A stretch of 64,000 nucleotides of DNA from Promethearchaeota archaeon (GTDB lineage Archaea; Asgardarchaeota; Lokiarchaeia; Sigyniarchaeales; SOKP01), in assembly GCA_016839555.1 (NCBI GenBank), contig JAEOUA010000007.1, positions 128,001 through 192,000 of the forward strand, read 5' to 3'. The notes beneath the pieces were generated by a model that was not told where the DNA came from, ran no database searches, and was given only the letters and a program-made list of their open reading frames with translations. Shown piece after piece: positions 27,602-32,957 of this stretch. Made by a program: the position numbers and the translations under genes. How positions within the stretch are numbered: the first letter of the stretch is position 1; each line of letters opens with the position of its first letter.

Positions 27602-28450
27602 TTAACTTGATGGTCTTTTGCTCCGAATTTCAGTTTTAGGAATATCTTTAAATTTTTGAATTGTTTTTTCTAATTTTACCTTTTGCTCTTCTAATAAATT
27701 TTTATCTTTTGCTAATTTATCTCTTTCTCGTTTGATTATATTTTTTTCATCTTCAATTCTACGATTTTCTTTTTCTAATTGTCTCTTTTCATCTGCCACA
27801 TTTGATTTTTCTCGTGAAATATCTTTAATAATTCTGTCTTTTTTATCCTCTAAATCCTTTATATCAATTGTTAATTGATCTCTCTCATCTTTTAGATTAT
27901 TTATTTTTCTTTGCCAATCTCTTGCTTCATTTTTTAATTTAGAATTATCTCCTCTTAATTTTTTGATTTTATCTTCTTCTTTCTTTCGAGTTTTTTCAAG
28001 ATCTTTTCTTGCATTTTTAAGGTCGTCTTTTAATTGTGCTAGTTTATCTTTTTCATCTTTTAAATCTTTGAATTCATCATCTAATTGTTCTTTCTTTTTT
28101 CTTAACATATCTTTAGTATTTTGAATTTTATCTTTTTCTTTTTCTAGATTCATTTTTTGATTTTCAATGTTATTCTGCATATCTTGTATATTATCTTTTA
28201 TATCATCCTGCTTTTTTAGCATGTTTTTCATATCTAATTCTATAGATTTTCTCTTATTTTCGAGATCTTCAATATTGGTGTTGTATTTCTGAATTTTTTC
28301 GATAGTGTTCTCCCACTCTTCACGTTCTTTTTTAAGCTTATTTCTTTCCTTTTTAAGTTTTTGAAGAAGTTTTTTACTGGGAAGAGCTCTCTCCTTCTCG
28401 ATTGGAGTTTTTTCTTTTATTTGATATTTATTTGGTGTTTTTTCTTGCAT
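27602..28450 (-). CDS. Long coiled-coil protein
   Basis: K/E/D/L-rich continuous heptad pattern over about 240 aa with no Pro in the core. ATG 28450 is preferred over the track's TTG 28477. Confidence 0.75.
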   Translation of the reverse strand: MQEKTPNKYQIKEKTPIEKERALPSKKLLQKLKKERNKLKKEREEWENTIEKIQKYNTNIEDLENKRKSIELDMKNMLKKQDDIKDNIQDMQNNIENQKMNLEKEKDKIQNTKDMLRKKKEQLDDEFKDLKDEKDKLAQLKDDLKNARKDLEKTRKKEEDKIKKLRGDNSKLKNEARDWQRKINNLKDERDQLTIDIKDLEDKKDRIIKDISREKSNVADEKRQLEKENRRIEDEKNIIKRERDKLAKDKNLLEEQKVKLEKTIQKFKDIPKTEIRSKRPSS

Positions 28451-28598
28451 ACTTTTCTTCACTATATTCTTATACAAAATAATAGAATTTATTTCTTTAG
28501 CAAATTCATGTTTAAAAAAAAACTCATTTATATAGTTTAATTTGTATGTGTGTATTAATAAAAATAGTACTCAATTAAAAATAAGAGGTTTATATAAA

Positions 28599-28967
28599 AT
28601 GAGTTTTGATGAGGAATTTGATGAGGAATTTGACGAAGATCTTGGTGGTCCCTCGGAAAAGGCTCCAAGTAAGAAATTTAAATCGAAAACCCCAGAAATA
28701 AAAGGACCTTCCGGTGGAAAAAAGATTTCCCTCTATTTTACCTCTACAGTAGGTCCAGGAGAAAAGAAACAAAAACTTATGGTTGACAATGCTAATCTTG
28801 TTGATGCAATTAAGGAGACAGTGGGAAATATTTTCGGATTAGACCCTAATGACTTTCATTTATCTTCTGGTGGAGTTACTATGGAAGAATCAAGCCCCTT
28901 GAGCGATTACAATGTAGATGATGGAGATGAAGTATTACTCATTCCTAGCTCAACAGCAGGTAAATAA
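28599..28967 (+). CDS. Ubiquitin-like (beta-grasp) modifier with acidic N-terminal extension; C-terminus ...LIPSSTAG-K
   Basis: Ubl-like C-terminal half (PLSDYNVDDGDEVLLIP); GAGG upstream of ATG 28599; first gene of the E1-E2-JAMM-RING operon. Confidence 0.85.
   Translation: MSFDEEFDEEFDEDLGGPSEKAPSKKFKSKTPEIKGPSGGKKISLYFTSTVGPGEKKQKLMVDNANLVDAIKETVGNIFGLDPNDFHLSSGGVTMEESSPLSDYNVDDGDEVLLIPSSTAGK
28605..28640 (+). repeat. 12-bp tandem repeat encoding (FDEE)2-FDED
   Basis: tttgatgaggaa tttgatgaggaa tttgacgaagat. Confidence 0.8.
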
Positions 28968-29077: not shown

Positions 29078-30304
29078 ATGATAAAAGAATCTGATTTTTT
29101 TAGTGAAATGTTAACCTCAGAAGAACGAGAGCTATATGATAGACAATTCCGTTTAGAAGGGTGGTCTCAAAAGGTCGTTAAGAATTCTCGAGTGTTAATT
29201 ATAGGTATTGGGGGTTTAGGGTGTGAGATAGCTAAAAATCTTGCAATGCTTGGAGTTGGTCATTTAGACTTAGTTGATTTAGATGTTATTGAGTATTCTA
29301 ATTTAAATAGGCAATTATTATTTGCTGGAGCTAAATTGGGTCAGCCGAAAGCCATAGTTGCCGCTGAAAAATTAAAAGAAATAAATCCCAAAATAACTAT
29401 AAAAGCATATCACTCTTCTTTAGAAAGATTAGATCCAATTATTTATAAAAAAGCGGATGTCGTTATTGGCGGACTAGATTCGATGAACGCTCGACTTAAC
29501 CTAAATGCCCATTGTATACGATTTGGAAAACCACTTGTTGATGGAGGTGTAGCTGGATATCATGGACATATGTATACTGTATTTCCATATGTGAATGCAT
29601 GCTATGAATGTAATCCATTGCCTGTAGGTGAAATTGATGACATGGCAGCATGTACGGTGGTCGGCATACCTCGTAAACGTATACATTGTGTATTTAAAGG
29701 TGATATGGCATTTAAAGAAAAATTTGAGCGAGATCCCAATCCGAAGGATATTAATGATATAAAATTTATTCAAAAAGAAGCAAATATATTAGCTGAGAAG
29801 TATGATTTTCTCCCTAAATTCACCAAATCCGATATTTTACAGATTATAGATAGGCATGATCCGGGCATTATCACAATAAATGCCTTAATATCGGCGATGG
29901 AGTCCCATGAGGCTGTAAAAATAATACATTGGATAAACGGACATAAAGCTTTGGGGAGACCAGTGACATCATATGTAGTTTTTAATGCTATGACTATGAA
30001 ATTTTACCATATTGAAAAAAAAAGAAATCCCGAATGTCCTCAATGCGGAAATAATGTAAAAAGAGTAAAAATACAAATAAGAAAGACTTCTCCATGTGAA
30101 AATATTATAAAACTTTTACTAAATAATGGATTTGAATTAGATCCCGATTACGAGCCAATTTTAACCACAATGGATTTTAATAATATCAAAGTAGTGGATT
30201 TGGATAAAACACCGATTGAAAATGATCTTAGGAATTTTGACCTTATAACGGCTGTTGGCTTTAAGAATTTCGGCGAGATTTTTATTACATTAAATTTAGC
30301 ATGA
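29078..30304 (+). CDS. Ubiquitin-like activating enzyme E1
   Basis: YDRQ, GIGGLG, DLDVIEYSNLNRQ, CYEC and CPQC zinc site, catalytic-Cys segment ACTVVGIPRKRIHC, and a C-terminal extension. Confidence 0.93.
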   Translation: MIKESDFFSEMLTSEERELYDRQFRLEGWSQKVVKNSRVLIIGIGGLGCEIAKNLAMLGVGHLDLVDLDVIEYSNLNRQLLFAGAKLGQPKAIVAAEKLKEINPKITIKAYHSSLERLDPIIYKKADVVIGGLDSMNARLNLNAHCIRFGKPLVDGGVAGYHGHMYTVFPYVNACYECNPLPVGEIDDMAACTVVGIPRKRIHCVFKGDMAFKEKFERDPNPKDINDIKFIQKEANILAEKYDFLPKFTKSDILQIIDRHDPGIITINALISAMESHEAVKIIHWINGHKALGRPVTSYVVFNAMTMKFYHIEKKRNPECPQCGNNVKRVKIQIRKTSPCENIIKLLLNNGFELDPDYEPILTTMDFNNIKVVDLDKTPIENDLRNFDLITAVGFKNFGEIFITLNLA

Positions 30305-30403: not shown

Positions 30404-30931
30404 ATGAGTTTAAGAAGCACGAGGATATCTCAAGATTTTGCGGCATTAAAAAAAATGATAAAAAACGGAACTATAGTCCAATTAAAACCTTGGGATAAAA
30501 AAAACAAGAGTATAGACCATCTTAAGGTTACCATTGAAGGACCAAAAGGAACTGCATATGAGGGGGGATTATTTAGGTTGGAAGTAAAATATCCTCCGCA
30601 ATATCCTAAAGTTCCTCCTTTTCTAAGATTATATACCCCTATTTGGCATCCAAATTTCTGGCCGAAACCCCATGAATATAAAGGGCAGAGAAATATTTGT
30701 TTAGCGTTGATTGATCCCTCATTAATTGGCAAAAAAGGGGGTTGGTCTCCTTCAAAAACTATTGTTACTGTGATCAATGCTATTATTGCGATGTTAAATA
30801 CTCGCGGAAAATATTTTAATCCCACAGATGTTTATAATAAAAAAGCTGCTTTAGAATCTATGAATAAGCGGGATTATTTTGAGAAAAAGGTTAAACATCT
30901 TGTAAAAAAATATGCGAATAAAAAGTGGTGA
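30404..30931 (+). CDS. Ubiquitin-conjugating enzyme E2
   Basis: GPKGTAYEGGLF, YPPQYPKVPP, HPN, NICL (catalytic Cys) and WSP. Confidence 0.95.
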   Translation: MSLRSTRISQDFAALKKMIKNGTIVQLKPWDKKNKSIDHLKVTIEGPKGTAYEGGLFRLEVKYPPQYPKVPPFLRLYTPIWHPNFWPKPHEYKGQRNICLALIDPSLIGKKGGWSPSKTIVTVINAIIAMLNTRGKYFNPTDVYNKKAALESMNKRDYFEKKVKHLVKKYANKKW

Positions 30932-30943
30932 GGAGAAAGGTAG

Positions 30944-31750
30944 ATGGATGAGAATCTAAAAAGAGATTCAATTAAAGAAACATTAAAAAAAAAAGTAAGA
31001 GAGCAATTAAAAGAAGAGCTCAAGAAAGAACTAAAACAAGAGCTTTTGGATGAAATTTATCAAGAATTAATGCAAGAAGAGATCGAATTCAAACAAGAAA
31101 TAACCTCAACCTTTAAAAATAAAATTGATAAAGGGAAATCTATTCAAAAAGCAGAAATGATAAAAGCACCCCAAAAAGTACAACAGATTCAAATTTCTAT
31201 AAAAGCAGTATTAAAAATGACAACCCATGCCTTAAAATATGCAAATAAAAATATACCACGAGAAAACTGGGTGGAGGTCATCGGATTGTTGGCAGGTAAA
31301 GAAAAAGATAACATTCTCCATATTAAGAATGCATATCCAATTGGGCATGGCAATGCAATTCATGTACAAATGGATGAGCGGAGAAATAAAAGAACTGGGC
31401 ATATTAAAGCATATGAAGAGAGTAGAAAAAGAAATTTATTTATTTGTGGATGGTATCATTCTCATCCCTCTTATGGGTGTTTTATGTCAGACGAAGATAT
31501 ATATACCCAAACCGAATATCAGAAACATTGGGAAAAAGCTGTAGCCATAGTGGTTGATCCTTATGAAATAGACGGGACTTCCTATGGATTCCAGGTATTT
31601 CGATGTGATTTAAAAACTCAAAAATGGTATTCCTTACCCTTTGAAATGGAAGAATCCTTAAATGTAAGCTTATTGCCCAAAATTTTAGATTTTGTAAATC
31701 CTATTGTTGATGGAGAAGCATTATTCTTAGAATATGATGAGGAATCATAA
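30944..31750 (+). CDS. JAMM/MPN+ metallo-isopeptidase (Rpn11/CSN5-like) with N-terminal charged helix
   Basis: EVIGLL, GWYHSHPSYGCFMSDED (HxH-x7-S-x2-D) and AVAIVVDP. Confidence 0.93.
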   Translation: MDENLKRDSIKETLKKKVREQLKEELKKELKQELLDEIYQELMQEEIEFKQEITSTFKNKIDKGKSIQKAEMIKAPQKVQQIQISIKAVLKMTTHALKYANKNIPRENWVEVIGLLAGKEKDNILHIKNAYPIGHGNAIHVQMDERRNKRTGHIKAYEESRKRNLFICGWYHSHPSYGCFMSDEDIYTQTEYQKHWEKAVAIVVDPYEIDGTSYGFQVFRCDLKTQKWYSLPFEMEESLNVSLLPKILDFVNPIVDGEALFLEYDEES

Positions 31751-31823: not shown

Positions 31824-32957
31824 ATTAAAAAAAGTTATTTTATTCCTTTAATCATAAGTTTCATCATTGGATTTATTCATGGAGTATTAATAGAGCCATC
31901 TTTTAATCTCTTTATTTCCTGGATTTTAATTGGGTTTTGGGTTATCTTTTCTATGAAAAGTATAGCTAAAATTAGAAAATATCGGCAATTTAATTCCCCT
32001 CATAATACCTCATTTTTTATTTTAGGGATCAATACAATTGGATTATTTTATTACTATACTAGCTTTTATACAGAATTAATTAATTGGGAATTATTTCAAG
32101 AAATTCAGAATTTTACTTTTTTTAATGCGTGGATCCTTATTTTCTCGCTTCCTTATTTAGTGTATGGACTATATTCCCTCTTTAAATGCATAAAAAAATA
32201 TCATGTAATATACATATATAAAGTTAAATCCATCAATACTCGAAAATTTATAGTCTTTTATTCTGTTTTGATTTTCACAGCAAATATAATCTTTCTAATT
32301 ATTCTTTTATATGAAATTGAAATTCTTTTTTTTACTCCTTTAATTAATTCTCCCGGACTAATTTATATCTTCTATAATTTTTTTATTTTTGTTTTGATTA
32401 TTTATGCAATTGCTAAGAAAAGAACAACTATTTCAGATATTTCACCTGAATTAATAGCACAGCGAAGGGCTCAAGTAGAATCGGTTCAATCAGCACCCAT
32501 TAGATCAGCACGAAGGGCACCCTCTAGTAGAGCCTCATCCTCTAGTAGATCTCAAAGAACAATGTCTACCACAAGATCAAGAACTACTCCAAAAGTGTAT
32601 AGACCGAAAACACAAAAAGCGCGGTCAAAATTAAGTACTCAACAAAAGAAGCAAATTTTTGAAAAAATAAAAAGCATGAAACCAAAAACCACGATGCTTA
32701 CACTAGATGATTTTAAATGCATCTTTTGCTTTAATCTTCCAGAATATCCAAAAGACAAGGGAAGGGGAATAGTTCTTTGCCCAAAATGTAATTATCCTGC
32801 TCACGCTGATGAGTTTAAAGATTGGCTTAAAAATTCGAATTTATGCTCTCGATGCAGTGCAGAATTACCTGCTTCTTATAAAAGAAATCCAAAAACTGTT
32901 TCAGTGAAATTTTATAGTAAAGTCATCCAATATTATAAGAAAAAAGAAAAATTGTGA
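31824..32957 (+). CDS. Multi-pass membrane protein with C-terminal RING-like finger (putative membrane E3 ligase); probable ATT start at 31824
   Basis: About 6 hydrophobic segments, a Ser/Arg-rich linker, then CIFC-x16-CPKC-x4-H-x2-E...W...CSRC. The track start is ATG 31953, but the frame is open from 31818 behind GGTGA. Confidence 0.8.
   Translation: MKKSYFIPLIISFIIGFIHGVLIEPSFNLFISWILIGFWVIFSMKSIAKIRKYRQFNSPHNTSFFILGINTIGLFYYYTSFYTELINWELFQEIQNFTFFNAWILIFSLPYLVYGLYSLFKCIKKYHVIYIYKVKSINTRKFIVFYSVLIFTANIIFLIILLYEIEILFFTPLINSPGLIYIFYNFFIFVLIIYAIAKKRTTISDISPELIAQRRAQVESVQSAPIRSARRAPSSRASSSSRSQRTMSTTRSRTTPKVYRPKTQKARSKLSTQQKKQIFEKIKSMKPKTTMLTLDDFKCIFCFNLPEYPKDKGRGIVLCPKCNYPAHADEFKDWLKNSNLCSRCSAELPASYKRNPKTVSVKFYSKVIQYYKKKEKL

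What the first reader, a model, noticed from the sequence alone, without database searches (positions are those of the whole stretch)
28599..28967. Modifier ends in a single Gly (STAG-K), resembles UFM1, and has a SUMO-like disordered N-tail
Seen: no di-Gly; the C-terminus is GDEVLLIPSSTAG followed by one Lys; about 40 N-terminal residues are acidic repeats then Lys/Pro-rich. Known: UFM1 ends ...ELRIIPRDRVG with a single Gly exposed by proteolysis and acts at the ER membrane. By-eye similarity also covers the first strand (KISLYFTSTVGP vs KVSFKITLTSDP). Inference: a pro-form needing removal of one Lys, probably by the operon's JAMM. It is paired with a UBA3/UBA2-style E1 (CT...PR..HC) rather than a UBA5-style one, a mosaic of eukaryotic pathways.
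Basis: partly seen in the sequence, partly recalled or inferred. Interest (0 to 1): 0.75.

Follow-up and report, generated by a model that had tools for sequence, protein, structure and literature searches.

The report
Asgard ubiquitin-like tag ending Ala-Gly
This gene encodes the protein tag of an Asgard archaeal ubiquitin-type tagging operon. It belongs to a highly conserved family that always ends in Ala-Gly rather than Gly-Gly and carries a floppy acidic N-terminal tail. It is a ubiquitin relative, not demonstrably a UFM1 relative.

Summary
Window 28599-28967 (+) encodes a 122-aa protein ending ...IPSSTAG-K, with no di-Gly. AlphaFold2 models residues 1-36 at pLDDT below 50. The tail is an acidic FDEE-repeat block followed by a Lys/Pro-rich block.

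The UFM1 reading is only weakly supported.
- Pfam places all 48 tested family members in PF00240 (ubiquitin) and none in Ufm1.
- The best fold match is Caldiarchaeum ubiquitin, then ubiquitin, ISG15 and NEDD8. UFM1 is absent from both top-50 structure lists.
- The genome shows no UFC1 or UFSP.
- Ufm1 appears only as second-tier language-model neighbours (0.84 against 0.89-0.91).

The enzymes are the canonical type: an E1 nearest UBA2/UBA1/UBA3, a UBC E2 with the HPN motif, a JAMM nearest Caldiarchaeum Rpn11, and a membrane RING protein. This is one coherent cascade, not a mosaic.

New family-level facts:
- All 225 unique relatives, all Asgard, end IP[AS]S[TIV]AG. 78% stop at Gly and 22% carry 1-7 variable extra residues.
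- 222 of 225 have a K[TI]P motif at a fixed distance before strand 1.
- The order Ubl-E1-E2-JAMM-RING is conserved in 57 of 79 loci.
- Tandem two- and three-unit precursors exist.

So the terminal Lys is most likely a dispensable propeptide.

Verdict: a new variant of a known kind. The scan had already noted this operon on this same window.

The parts
28599..28967 (+). Ubl gene: 122-aa precursor of an Ala-Gly-ended ubiquitin-family modifier
   Evidence: PF00240 at 26.4 bits (cut-off 25.4); 712 homologues; AlphaFold2 beta-grasp; best fold match is Caldiarchaeum ubiquitin.
28599..28646 (+). Acidic block of the N-tail (residues 1-16, FDEE repeats). It includes a perfect 12-bp tandem repeat at 28605-28633.
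   Evidence: pLDDT below 50. Family tails average 13.9 acidic against 3.9 basic residues.
28647..28721 (+). Lys/Pro-rich block of the N-tail (residues 17-41). It contains the conserved S29-K30-T31-P32 motif at 28683-28694.
   Evidence: K30 and P32 are invariant and T31 is at least 90% conserved among 48 members. K[TI]P is present in 222 of 225 relatives, 6 or 11 residues before strand 1.
28722..28955 (+). Beta-grasp core (residues 42-119)
   Evidence: AlphaFold2 pLDDT about 90, with strands at 42-49, 56-63, 86-90 and 111-116 and a helix at 68-79. Foldseek and VIA matches are to ubiquitin-type folds.
28956..28961 (+). Ala120-Gly121, the presumed mature C-terminus and site of adenylation
   Evidence: A120 and G121 are invariant. 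All 225 relatives end IP[AS]S[TIV]AG.
28962..28964 (+). Lys122, a one-residue C-terminal extension (presumed propeptide)
   Evidence: Read directly. Absent in 175 of 225 relatives and variable in the other 50.
29078..30304 (+). E1 (408 aa): ThiF-fold adenylation domain with the canonical-E1 catalytic Cys segment
   Evidence: PF00899 at 3.7e-60. PDB: UBA2 2.9e-41, UBA1 5.6e-38, UBA3 1.4e-36 (aligned over residues 34-371), UBA5 2e-16.
30404..30931 (+). E2 (175 aa): UBC fold with the HPN motif and the catalytic Cys. It is the only UQ_con gene found in the genome.
   Evidence: PF00179 at 1.3e-24; alignment to a solved E2; one match in the genome.
30944..31750 (+). JAMM/MPN+ metalloprotease (268 aa) with a Lys/Glu-rich N-terminal extension
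   Evidence: PF01398 at 9.3e-17. Best PDB match is the Caldiarchaeum Rpn11-like protein 6FJV/6FNN at 2.4e-17, with the HSHP...S..D motif aligned.
31953..32957 (+). Membrane protein with a C-terminal RING-like zinc finger (presumed E3)
   Evidence: Weak hit to zf-RING_16 (E 0.038). It holds the last place of the operon in the loci. An earlier scan note, e1-5561368, describes it.
27602..28477 (-). Divergently transcribed Lys/Glu-rich coiled-coil gene that travels with the operon
   Evidence: tblastn finds it directly upstream on the opposite strand in most of the 79 loci. Only sub-threshold coiled-coil Pfam hits. Its low-complexity composition makes the similarity soft.

Best explanation
The gene encodes the modifier of an Asgard archaeal ubiquitin-type conjugation cascade. 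It belongs to a distinct, highly conserved, Asgard-only family of ubiquitin-fold proteins. Each member has three parts: a disordered tail of about 40 residues (an acidic Phe/Asp/Glu block, then a Lys/Pro block with an invariant K-T-P motif), a beta-grasp core, and an invariant ...L-I-P-[A/S]-S-[T/I/V]-A-G end.

Proposed mechanism:
1. In this organism the protein is made with one extra Lys, which must be removed to free the Gly121 carboxylate. The operon's Rpn11-like JAMM protease is the likeliest agent.
2. The UBA2/UBA3-like E1 adenylates Gly121 and takes it onto its catalytic Cys.
3. The tag passes to the Cys of the UBC-type E2.
4. The membrane-embedded RING protein directs it onto lysines of membrane or membrane-near targets.
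5. The JAMM also reverses the mark. This is probably its main job, because most operons keep the JAMM although their modifier needs no trimming.

Shown here: gene reality, fold, family membership, invariance of Ala-Gly, variability of the extension, enzyme types and synteny. Inferred: every biochemical step, the identity of the trimming enzyme, the targets, and the role of the tail.
For: - C-terminus: all 225 unique relatives end IP[AS]S[TIV]AG. 175 stop at Gly. 50 carry 1-7 unrelated residues.
- Head-to-tail two- and three-unit proteins exist, in which ...STAG is followed directly by the next unit's acidic tail (P0123 and P0122). They could only yield monomers by cleavage after Ala-Gly.
- Enzymes: E1, E2 with HPN and Cys, JAMM nearest the Caldiarchaeum Rpn11 that was shown to process pro-ubiquitin (PMC5654768, PMC6043591).
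- Synteny: 57 of 79 species-representative loci have the Ubl directly before the E1, and nearly all loci long enough to show it continue with E2, JAMM and RING.
- This is the only UQ_con E2 found in a genome estimated 92% complete.
Against: - No experiment exists for this family. No RNA run holds the locus.
- The PF00240 score is barely over the cut-off (26.4 against 25.4 bits).
- Ala at the penultimate place is unlike every characterised E1-E2 modifier I know of, so activation by a canonical E1 is an assumption.
- By alignment to ubiquitin, Ile44, Lys48 and Lys63 correspond to Ser89, Val93 and Asp108. Ubiquitin's usual recognition surface and chain sites are therefore not kept.
- The RING assignment rests on a weak Pfam hit (E 0.038).
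- The tandem forms sit on 1.2-kb singleton contigs.
- Two unlinked Gly-Gly-ended small Ubls in the same genome could also be substrates of this E1.
Confidence: 0.78

Rival explanations
1. The family is the Asgard counterpart, or ancestor, of eukaryotic UFM1. It would have a single-Gly end exposed by proteolysis, and might be what a 2026 paper calls 'Asgard Ufm1 homologues'.
For:
- The strand 1-2 loop is long.
- With ubiquitin-type clusters excluded, the three nearest named ESM-Atlas clusters are all Ufm1 (0.84; 129-139 of 256 features).
- PMC12962969 (preprint 10.1101/2024.07.03.601958) reports Ufm1 homologues in nine Asgard clades and in no other prokaryote. It notes that some hits were not full length and some had several hit regions. 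That fits this family's fused and tandem forms and its Asgard-only range.
Against: - No Pfam Ufm1 hit at E<=10 for 48 members or in the genome.
- In 400 Asgard genomes the Ufm1 model never reaches its cut-off. None of the 21 sub-threshold hits I inspected belongs to this family.
- UFM1 is not among the 50 listed Foldseek rows or the 50 best VIA entries, while about 50 other ubiquitin-type domains are.
- The E1 is UBA2/3-like, not UBA5-like. The E2 is a UQ_con with HPN.
- UFC1 and the UFSP protease family were not found in the genome, and the UFL1 family gives only 15 bits.
- A score of 0.84 is in the range that shuffled proteins often reach.
- I could not make a direct profile comparison with UFM1, because no tool gave me a UFM1 sequence by reference.
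Confidence: 0.12
2. The terminal Lys is not removed. The 122-aa form is the working protein, either as a non-covalent ubiquitin-like adaptor or with Lys122 as a regulated cap that keeps most of the pool inactive.
For: - The Lys codon is present in the assembly and in a contig of a second study.
- A 93%-identical relative (P0003) and an 80%-identical one (P0008) also end in K.
- Related membrane-anchored Ubl-domain proteins with no terminal Gly at all exist in expanded clusters.
Against: - Close relatives at 84-92% identity (P0004 to P0007) end exactly at Gly.
- Extensions across the family share neither length nor sequence. That is the pattern of an unconstrained propeptide.
- The gene sits directly before E1, E2 and JAMM.
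Confidence: 0.06
3. It is a sulfur-carrier type beta-grasp protein (MoaD/ThiS/Urm1/SAMP-like) that is thiocarboxylated by the ThiF-family enzyme, rather than a protein tag.
For: - JGI names three relatives 'molybdopterin converting factor small subunit'.
- The E1 also matches MoeB and ThiF models below their cut-offs.
- The tandem form P0122 matches the ThiS family over its cut-off (36.1 against 22.5 bits), and two of 48 members match it weakly.
Against: - The operon holds a UBC E2, a RING protein and a JAMM, which sulfur transfer does not need.
- The E1 carries the canonical-E1 catalytic Cys segment, and no rhodanese domain was detected.
- The genome has two other ThiF-family genes for such roles.
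Confidence: 0.03

Closest known systems
Caldiarchaeum subterraneum ubiquitin operon (Ub, E1-like, E2-like, small RING finger protein, Rpn11/JAMM), reconstituted in PMC5654768 and PMC6043591
   Same: - The same five kinds of gene lie in one cluster.
- The modifier's best fold match is CsUb (6FNO, 6FJ7).
- The JAMM's best sequence match is CsRpn11.
- The modifier may be made with a C-terminal extension that has to be removed.
   Different: - CsUb ends Gly-Gly followed by nine residues. This family ends Ala-Gly followed by 0-7 residues.
- CsUb keeps an Ile44-like hydrophobic patch (PMC5654768). Here the aligned residue is an invariant Ser.
- This family has a conserved disordered N-tail of about 40 residues.
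- The RING protein here is a multi-pass membrane protein, not a small soluble one.
- The family was found only in Asgard archaea.
Asgard Gly-Gly ubiquitin linked to ESCRT genes (Odin, Heimdall, Hel; PMC9192718; bioRxiv 10.1101/2023.07.25.550441)
   Same: Same phylum, same enzyme classes (E1, E2, RING E3), and pro-forms with short extensions (Ser-Pro-Lys-Asn in the Helarchaeial case).
   Different: - Those modifiers end Gly-Gly and lie beside ESCRT genes. This operon is unlinked to the genome's ESCRT-III genes, which are on another contig.
- Asgard families without this Ubl still have E2 genes, for example 12 of 12 and 18 of 19 genomes. At least two E2-dependent systems therefore exist in the phylum.
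Eukaryotic UFM1
   Same: A single C-terminal Gly exposed by trimming; an I-P-x4-G end; a beta-grasp fold; second-tier language-model neighbours.
   Different: - No Ufm1 profile match.
- Not among the 50 best listed structural matches in either search.
- The E1, E2, protease and E3 classes all differ (UBA5, UFC1, UFSP and UFL1 against a UBA2/3-like E1, a UBC E2, a JAMM and a RING).
Eukaryotic SUMO
   Same: - A disordered N-terminal tail before the beta-grasp.
- An uncharged Thr-x-Gly end (T-A-G here; T-G-G in SUMO, from my own knowledge).
- The E1's best solved relative is UBA2.
- 6 of 48 members weakly match Rad60-SLD.
   Different: - The E1 is encoded by one gene, not by a SAE1/UBA2 pair.
- The E2 is not specifically UBC9-like. 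UBE2T and UBE2R score higher.
- No psi-K-x-E site can be read in this tail.
- The protease is a JAMM, not a Ulp/SENP cysteine protease.
Eukaryotic polyubiquitin genes
   Same: Relatives P0122 (three units) and P0123 (two units) are head-to-tail repeats of the whole modifier. Each unit ends in the conjugation motif.
   Different: - Each unit includes its own acidic tail.
- The units differ from one another.
- The forms are known only from two short metagenome contigs. I could not place them in a genome.

Membership tests
Ubiquitin family (Pfam PF00240), conjugatable type | Profile match over the curated cut-off | tested here: met
   26.4 bits against a 25.4 cut-off for this protein. 48 of 48 family members match; best E 2e-06.
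Ubiquitin family (Pfam PF00240), conjugatable type | Beta-grasp fold | tested here: met
Ubiquitin family (Pfam PF00240), conjugatable type | C-terminal Gly-Gly | tested here: not met
   Ala-Gly in all 225 relatives.
Ubiquitin family (Pfam PF00240), conjugatable type | Ile44-centred hydrophobic patch and Lys48/Lys63 | tested here: not met
   In the gapless HMMER alignment to ubiquitin, Ser89 (invariant), Val93 and Asp108 stand at these places. This is based on alignment only.
Ubiquitin family (Pfam PF00240), conjugatable type | Dedicated E1, E2 and E3 enzymes | tested here: met
   Adjacent E1, E2 and RING genes, syntenic across Asgard loci.
Ubiquitin family (Pfam PF00240), conjugatable type | Isopeptide conjugation to target lysines | not testable with these tools
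   Needs biochemistry or proteomics.
UFM1 | Match to the Ufm1 profile (PF03671) | tested here: not met
   No hit at E<=10 in 48 members or in the genome. No match over the cut-off in 400 Asgard genomes.
UFM1 | Closest structural relatives are UFM1 structures | tested here: inconclusive
   UFM1 is not listed among the 50 best in Foldseek-PDB or VIA-wide. A family that is not listed is not thereby excluded. No direct superposition was possible.
UFM1 | Single C-terminal Gly exposed by removal of a short extension | tested here: met
   ...A-G followed by 0-7 residues. The trimming itself is inferred.
UFM1 | UBA5-type E1, UFC1 E2, UFSP cysteine protease, UFL1 E3 | tested here: not met
   The E1 matches UBA2 at 2.9e-41 against UBA5 at 2e-16. 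The E2 is a UQ_con with HPN. PF08694 and PF07910 give no match in a genome estimated 92% complete. PF09743 gives only 15.4 bits.
Archaeal ubiquitin operon (Caldiarchaeum type) | Clustered Ub, E1, E2, RING and JAMM genes | tested here: met
Archaeal ubiquitin operon (Caldiarchaeum type) | Gly-Gly modifier and a small soluble RING finger protein | tested here: not met
   The end is Ala-Gly. The RING-like finger lies at the end of a 334-aa protein whose N-terminal half is hydrophobic.
SUMO | Disordered N-terminal tail | tested here: met
   pLDDT below 50 for residues 1-36.
SUMO | Rad60-SLD/SUMO profile, heterodimeric E1, UBC9-type E2 | tested here: not met
   Rad60-SLD matches only 6 of 48 members, at E>=0.0017. 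There is one E1 gene. UBC9 ranks below UBE2T and UBE2R.

The most novel reading that the evidence does not exclude
The Ala-Gly family is a separate, Asgard-born protein tag that is the sister or ancestor of eukaryotic UFM1, and is the unnamed 'Asgard Ufm1 homologue' of PMC12962969. In Asgard archaea it is still served by a canonical UBA2/3-like E1, a UBC E2, a membrane RING E3 and a JAMM protease, and in some lineages it is encoded as polyubiquitin-like tandem precursors. UFM1's own UBA5/UFC1/UFL1/UFSP enzymes would then have been recruited only later, and a membrane-directed single-Gly tagging pathway would predate eukaryotes.
Probability: 0.12. Interest if true: 0.8.

Novelty: new variant of a known kind. 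Interest (0 to 1): 0.5.

Why it matters
Ubiquitin-type tagging in Asgard archaea bears on how eukaryotic protein regulation arose. Published work has dealt with Gly-Gly ubiquitins tied to ESCRT genes.

This family differs in four ways:
- It shows a second system that is at least as conserved: 65-90% identity across named Asgard lineages, and a match in 192 of 400 genomes searched.
- It has a different conjugation end (Ala-Gly).
- It lacks ubiquitin's Ile44 surface.
- It has its own conserved tail motif and a membrane-bound RING partner.

There is also a practical consequence. The protein has no Lys or Arg after Lys72, so trypsin would leave a 49-residue remnant on targets. Standard di-Gly remnant proteomics would miss this modification entirely. 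Glu-C should leave about ten residues (VLLIPSSTAG).

The family also tests how far canonical E1 enzymes and JAMM proteases tolerate Ala at the penultimate position. It gives a concrete candidate for checking the published claim that UFM1 came from Asgard archaea.

Tried and rejected
Genomic context came from the search for related loci and my own tblastn instead.
- I could not compare the family directly with UFM1 by pairwise alignment, hhalign or superposition.
- UFM1 was absent from the listed Foldseek and VIA rows. This is reported as an absence only.
- The Pfam Ufm1 model over 400 Asgard genomes gave only sub-threshold hits. The 21 I inspected were ACT-domain, HAD, purine phosphorylase and other unrelated proteins. 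The exception is a 103-aa ORF, L095:1390-1698. It is unrelated to this family (hhalign probability 0.3%) and has only two homologues.
- The supplements of PMC12962969 are not held, so the identity of its 'Asgard Ufm1' remains open.
- No RNA holder was listed for the locus. The contigs laid say nothing about expression.
- The three-unit precursor P0122 was not found in the metagenome contig scan, nor in 400 Asgard genomes at E<=1e-45.
- I considered and rejected a sulfur-carrier role and a chance ORF.
Full report
**1. What is there**

Window 28599-28967 (+) is an ORF of 122 codons. It ends I-P-S-S-T-A-G-K-stop, read as gca ggt aaa taa at 28956-28967. More than 100 relatives begin M-[S/G/D]-F-D-[D/E]-E-F. 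The ATG at 28599 is therefore the start, and the database's own 139-aa gene call (P0002) is over-extended.

- Residues 1-16 are acidic: 9 Asp/Glu and no Lys/Arg. They are encoded partly by a perfect 12-bp tandem repeat at 28605-28633.
- Residues 17-41 hold 7 Lys and 4 Pro.
- AlphaFold2, run with a 48-sequence alignment, gives pLDDT below 50 for residues 1-36. It gives about 90 for a beta-grasp with strands at 42-49, 56-63, 86-90 and 111-116 and a helix at 68-79.

**2. Surroundings**

The gene heads a co-oriented row of four further genes:
- an E1 (29078-30304; ThiF, 3.7e-60);
- an E2 (30404-30931; UQ_con, 1.3e-24);
- a JAMM protease (30944-31750; JAB, 9.3e-17);
- a 334-aa protein with a hydrophobic N-terminal half and a C-terminal RING-like finger (31953-32957; weak zf-RING_16 hit, E 0.038).

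A Lys/Glu-rich coiled-coil gene lies divergently upstream (27602-28477, minus strand).

The window belongs to a 3.74-Mb, 12-contig genome estimated 92% complete. The best DNA holders are marine sediment metagenomes. The nearest named relatives are Lokiarchaeota/Promethearchaeota MAGs.

**3. The family**

A search of 5.8 billion proteins gave 712 homologues. Every one that carries a name is Asgard: Loki/Promethearchaeia, Thor, Heimdall, Hod and Hermod. The genome-contig scan adds Odin and Sigynarchaeum.

Among 48 diverse members, 32 columns are invariant. They include:
- S-T-x-G-P-G-E-K after strand 1;
- most of the D-F-H-L-S-S-G-G-x-T segment;
- the end L-x-I-P-x-S-x-A-G.

I pooled database hits with genes read from 79 species-representative loci. 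That gave 225 unique sequences:
- All 225 end IP[AS]S[TIV]AG.
- 175 stop at the Gly.
- 50 go on for 1-7 residues with nothing in common (K, KC, ITM, ICQ, QIY, RLI, YF, LNISN and others).
- 222 of 225 carry K-[T/I]-P in the tail, 6 or 11 residues before strand 1.
- The tail has a median length of 40 residues and averages 13.9 acidic against 3.9 basic residues.

The family profile matches 192 of 400 Asgard genomes at E<=1e-15. That includes 119 of 134 in the window's own GTDB family. Several other families have none.

**4. Context is conserved**

tblastn with the window's proteins shows the Ubl directly before the E1 in 57 of 79 loci. Nearly all loci long enough to show it continue with E2, JAMM and membrane RING. 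The coiled-coil gene usually lies upstream on the other strand. Identities to the window's proteins:
- E2: 72-91% where matched at full length;
- E1: 62-83%.

Many loci are expanded. They carry a second plus-strand Ubl (37 copies, all ending AS[T/I/V]AG). They also carry a minus-strand gene of about 264 aa whose C-terminal Ubl domain ends ...IPSRKEKN, with no Gly. The database relatives of that type (P0201, P0240, P0257) start with hydrophobic segments.

Some genomes hold further stand-alone copies.

**5. Processing**

Three facts support the reading that residues after Gly121 are a propeptide.
- The extension is absent in 78% of relatives and unconstrained in the rest. Relatives 84-92% identical to the window protein end at Gly, while a 93%-identical one keeps the K.
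- Two proteins are head-to-tail repeats of the whole unit. P0122 has three units, with three PF00240 stretches. P0123 has two units. In both...ST/QAG runs straight into the next acidic tail. Monomers can arise only by cleavage after Ala-Gly.
- The operon's JAMM is closest in the PDB to the Caldiarchaeum Rpn11-like enzyme (2.4e-17, metal-binding motif aligned). That enzyme was shown to remove the nine-residue propeptide of its ubiquitin and to deconjugate it (PMC5654768; PMC6043591).

The JAMM is kept in operons whose modifier needs no trimming. Its main role is therefore probably reversal of the mark. The trimming itself is inferred, not shown.

Caveats: the tandem forms are singletons on 1.2-kb contigs. 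The nearest single-unit relative, P0135, is from a Hodarchaeales MAG. I could not find the tandem forms again.

**6. Ubiquitin or UFM1?**

Evidence for ubiquitin:
- PF00240 is the only family over its cut-off. 48 of 48 members match it, and none matches Ufm1 even at E<=10.
- PDB sequence searches with the protein and with the family profile list ubiquitins, Hub1, a Bacteroides ubiquitin-like protein and entries also listed by Foldseek as Caldiarchaeum ubiquitin. UFM1 is not among the 60 shown.
- Foldseek against the PDB ranks Caldiarchaeum ubiquitin first (E 6e-08), then ISG15, ubiquitin, NEDD8 and SUMO.
- The nearest ESM-Atlas clusters are ubiquitin-type, at 0.89-0.91.

Further evidence against UFM1:
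- The Ufm1 profile finds nothing in this genome at E<=10.
- It finds nothing over its cut-off in 400 Asgard genomes. The 21 sub-threshold hits I read are unrelated proteins.
- UFC1 and the UFSP protease family were not found. The UFL1 family gives 15 bits.
- The two segments compared by eye hit nothing in the PDB.

Evidence for UFM1:
- With ubiquitin-type clusters excluded, the three nearest named Atlas clusters are all Ufm1. The score is 0.84, which is a lead only.
- A 2026 paper reports Ufm1 homologues in nine Asgard clades. It remarks on partial hits and on hits with several regions (PMC12962969). That would suit this family, but no accession is in the held text.

I could not run a direct comparison with UFM1. 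My reading is that this is a divergent ubiquitin-family modifier, with a chance of about 12% that it is specifically UFM1's kin.

**7. The enzymes are canonical**

- **E1.** It matches UBA2 (2.9e-41), UBA1 (5.6e-38) and UBA3 (1.4e-36, aligned over residues 34-371). These are far better than MoeB (5.8e-33) or UBA5 (2e-16). Its segment A-C-T-V-V-G-I-P-R-K-R-I-H-C aligns with the corresponding UBA2 segment G-C-T-I-R-N-T-P-S-E-P-I-H-C. From my own knowledge, that segment holds UBA2's catalytic Cys.
- **E2.** It keeps the HPN motif and the Cys, with seven extra residues between them. It is the only UQ_con gene found in the genome.

Because the modifier is also ubiquitin-type, there is no mosaic.

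**8. How it differs from ubiquitin**

- In the gapless alignment to ubiquitin, Ile44, Lys48 and Lys63 correspond to Ser89 (invariant), Val93 and Asp108.
- The last five residues are uncharged (S-S-T-A-G), where ubiquitin has R-L-R-G-G.
- The conserved K-T-P motif and tail have no counterpart in ubiquitin.

These points suggest a private recognition surface and private enzymes. That could insulate this tag from the two small Gly-Gly-ended Ubls of the same genome (L001 and L002; PF00240 at 1e-10 and 3e-09). Those genes lie away from any E2.

The role of the tail is unknown. Candidates are a Lys acceptor for chains (as in SUMO), a proline-directed phosphorylation site, or a docking site for the RING or JAMM proteins. 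None was tested.

**9. Place among Asgard systems**

- Published Asgard work concerns Gly-Gly ubiquitins beside ESCRT genes (PMC9192718; 10.1101/2023.07.25.550441).
- Here the ESCRT-III genes are on another contig.
- Asgard families without this Ubl still have E2 genes. The phylum therefore holds at least two E2-dependent systems.
- I found no paper that describes the Ala-Gly end, the tail motif or the tandem forms. The library is not complete.
- NCBI already names many members 'ubiquitin-like domain-containing protein'.
- Earlier notes of this scan on the same window describe the operon and the membrane RING.

**10. Verdict**

The propeptide, the JAMM and the E1 type stand. The UFM1 likeness and the mosaic do not.
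- It is a new variant of a known kind.
- Interest is moderate. The system type is known, but the invariant Ala-Gly end, the conserved tail motif, the poly-Ubl precursors and the blind spot for di-Gly proteomics are worth a specialist's attention.

Noticed in passing
L001:1486-1740 (-) and L002:1438-1698 (+), own genome contigs C4 and C1: Two more small ubiquitin-family genes (84 and 86 aa). They have no N-tail and end ...TQAGG-V and ...TQAGG. Their PF00240 matches (1e-10 and 3e-09) are stronger than that of the operon's Ubl. Neither lies next to an E1 or E2 gene. A 253-aa ThiF-family gene lies 14 kb from the first.
   Followed up: partly
P0122 (372 aa) and P0123 (250 aa), metagenome proteins: Head-to-tail three-unit and two-unit versions of the whole modifier (tail plus core plus ...ST/QAG), resembling polyubiquitin genes. 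They are singletons on 1.2-kb contigs. The nearest single-unit relative, P0135, is from a Hodarchaeales MAG. I could not find them again in contig or genome searches.
   Followed up: partly
P0127, P0130, P0131, P0132, P0143, P0144, P0149, P0155; also P0126, P0255, P0138: Longer proteins that end in the same K-T-P tail, Ubl core and ...STAG. In front they carry a conserved Cys-x2-Cys domain of about 100 residues ('YNCPKC...') plus a coiled coil, or a Roadblock-like domain (sub-threshold), or a HerA-like ATPase. Whole proteins may be conjugatable through their C-terminal Gly. Some may instead be gene-call or assembly fusions; P0128 and P0134 look chimeric.
   Followed up: partly
for example L021:5192-5419 (-) and L025:5188-5415 (-); proteins P0201, P0240, P0257: In 37 expanded clusters, a gene of about 264 aa on the opposite strand encodes a related Ubl domain that ends ...IPSRKEKN, with no terminal Gly. 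It is a non-conjugatable relative sitting beside the conjugatable ones. The database proteins of this type start with hydrophobic segments and look membrane-anchored. The window's own cluster lacks it.
   Followed up: partly
L095:1390-1698 (+), genome G283: A 103-aa Asgard ORF ending ...IVPRDLLG-VFW. Its only Pfam hit is Ufm1 (E 0.0046, below the cut-off). It is unrelated to the Ala-Gly family (hhalign probability 0.3%) and has only two homologues in 5.8 billion proteins. It may be a genuinely UFM1-like archaeal protein.
   Followed up: partly
window 27602-28477 (-): A Lys/Glu-rich coiled-coil gene of 291 aa is divergently transcribed from the Ubl. It holds this place in most related loci, so it may belong to the system. 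Its low-complexity sequence makes the similarity soft.
   Followed up: partly
window 30944-31230 (+): The JAMM protease has an N-terminal extension of about 75-95 residues, rich in Lys and Glu, before the MPN domain. The Caldiarchaeum enzyme that was solved lacks it. The extension could dock the acidic tail of the Ubl. This is speculation.
   Followed up: no
window 30404-30931 (+): The E2 has seven extra residues between the HPN motif and the catalytic Cys, compared with a solved E2. The best UQ_con score in the window's own GTDB family (about 1e-25) is lower than in other Asgard families (1e-33 to 1e-39).
   Followed up: no
window 28605-28646 and 28836-28889: In marine sediment and marsh metagenomes, many short contigs 85-95% alike pile up on just these two stretches (the acidic repeat and the DFHLSSGGVTM segment). 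Several related Asgard species with this gene seem to share those samples.
   Followed up: no
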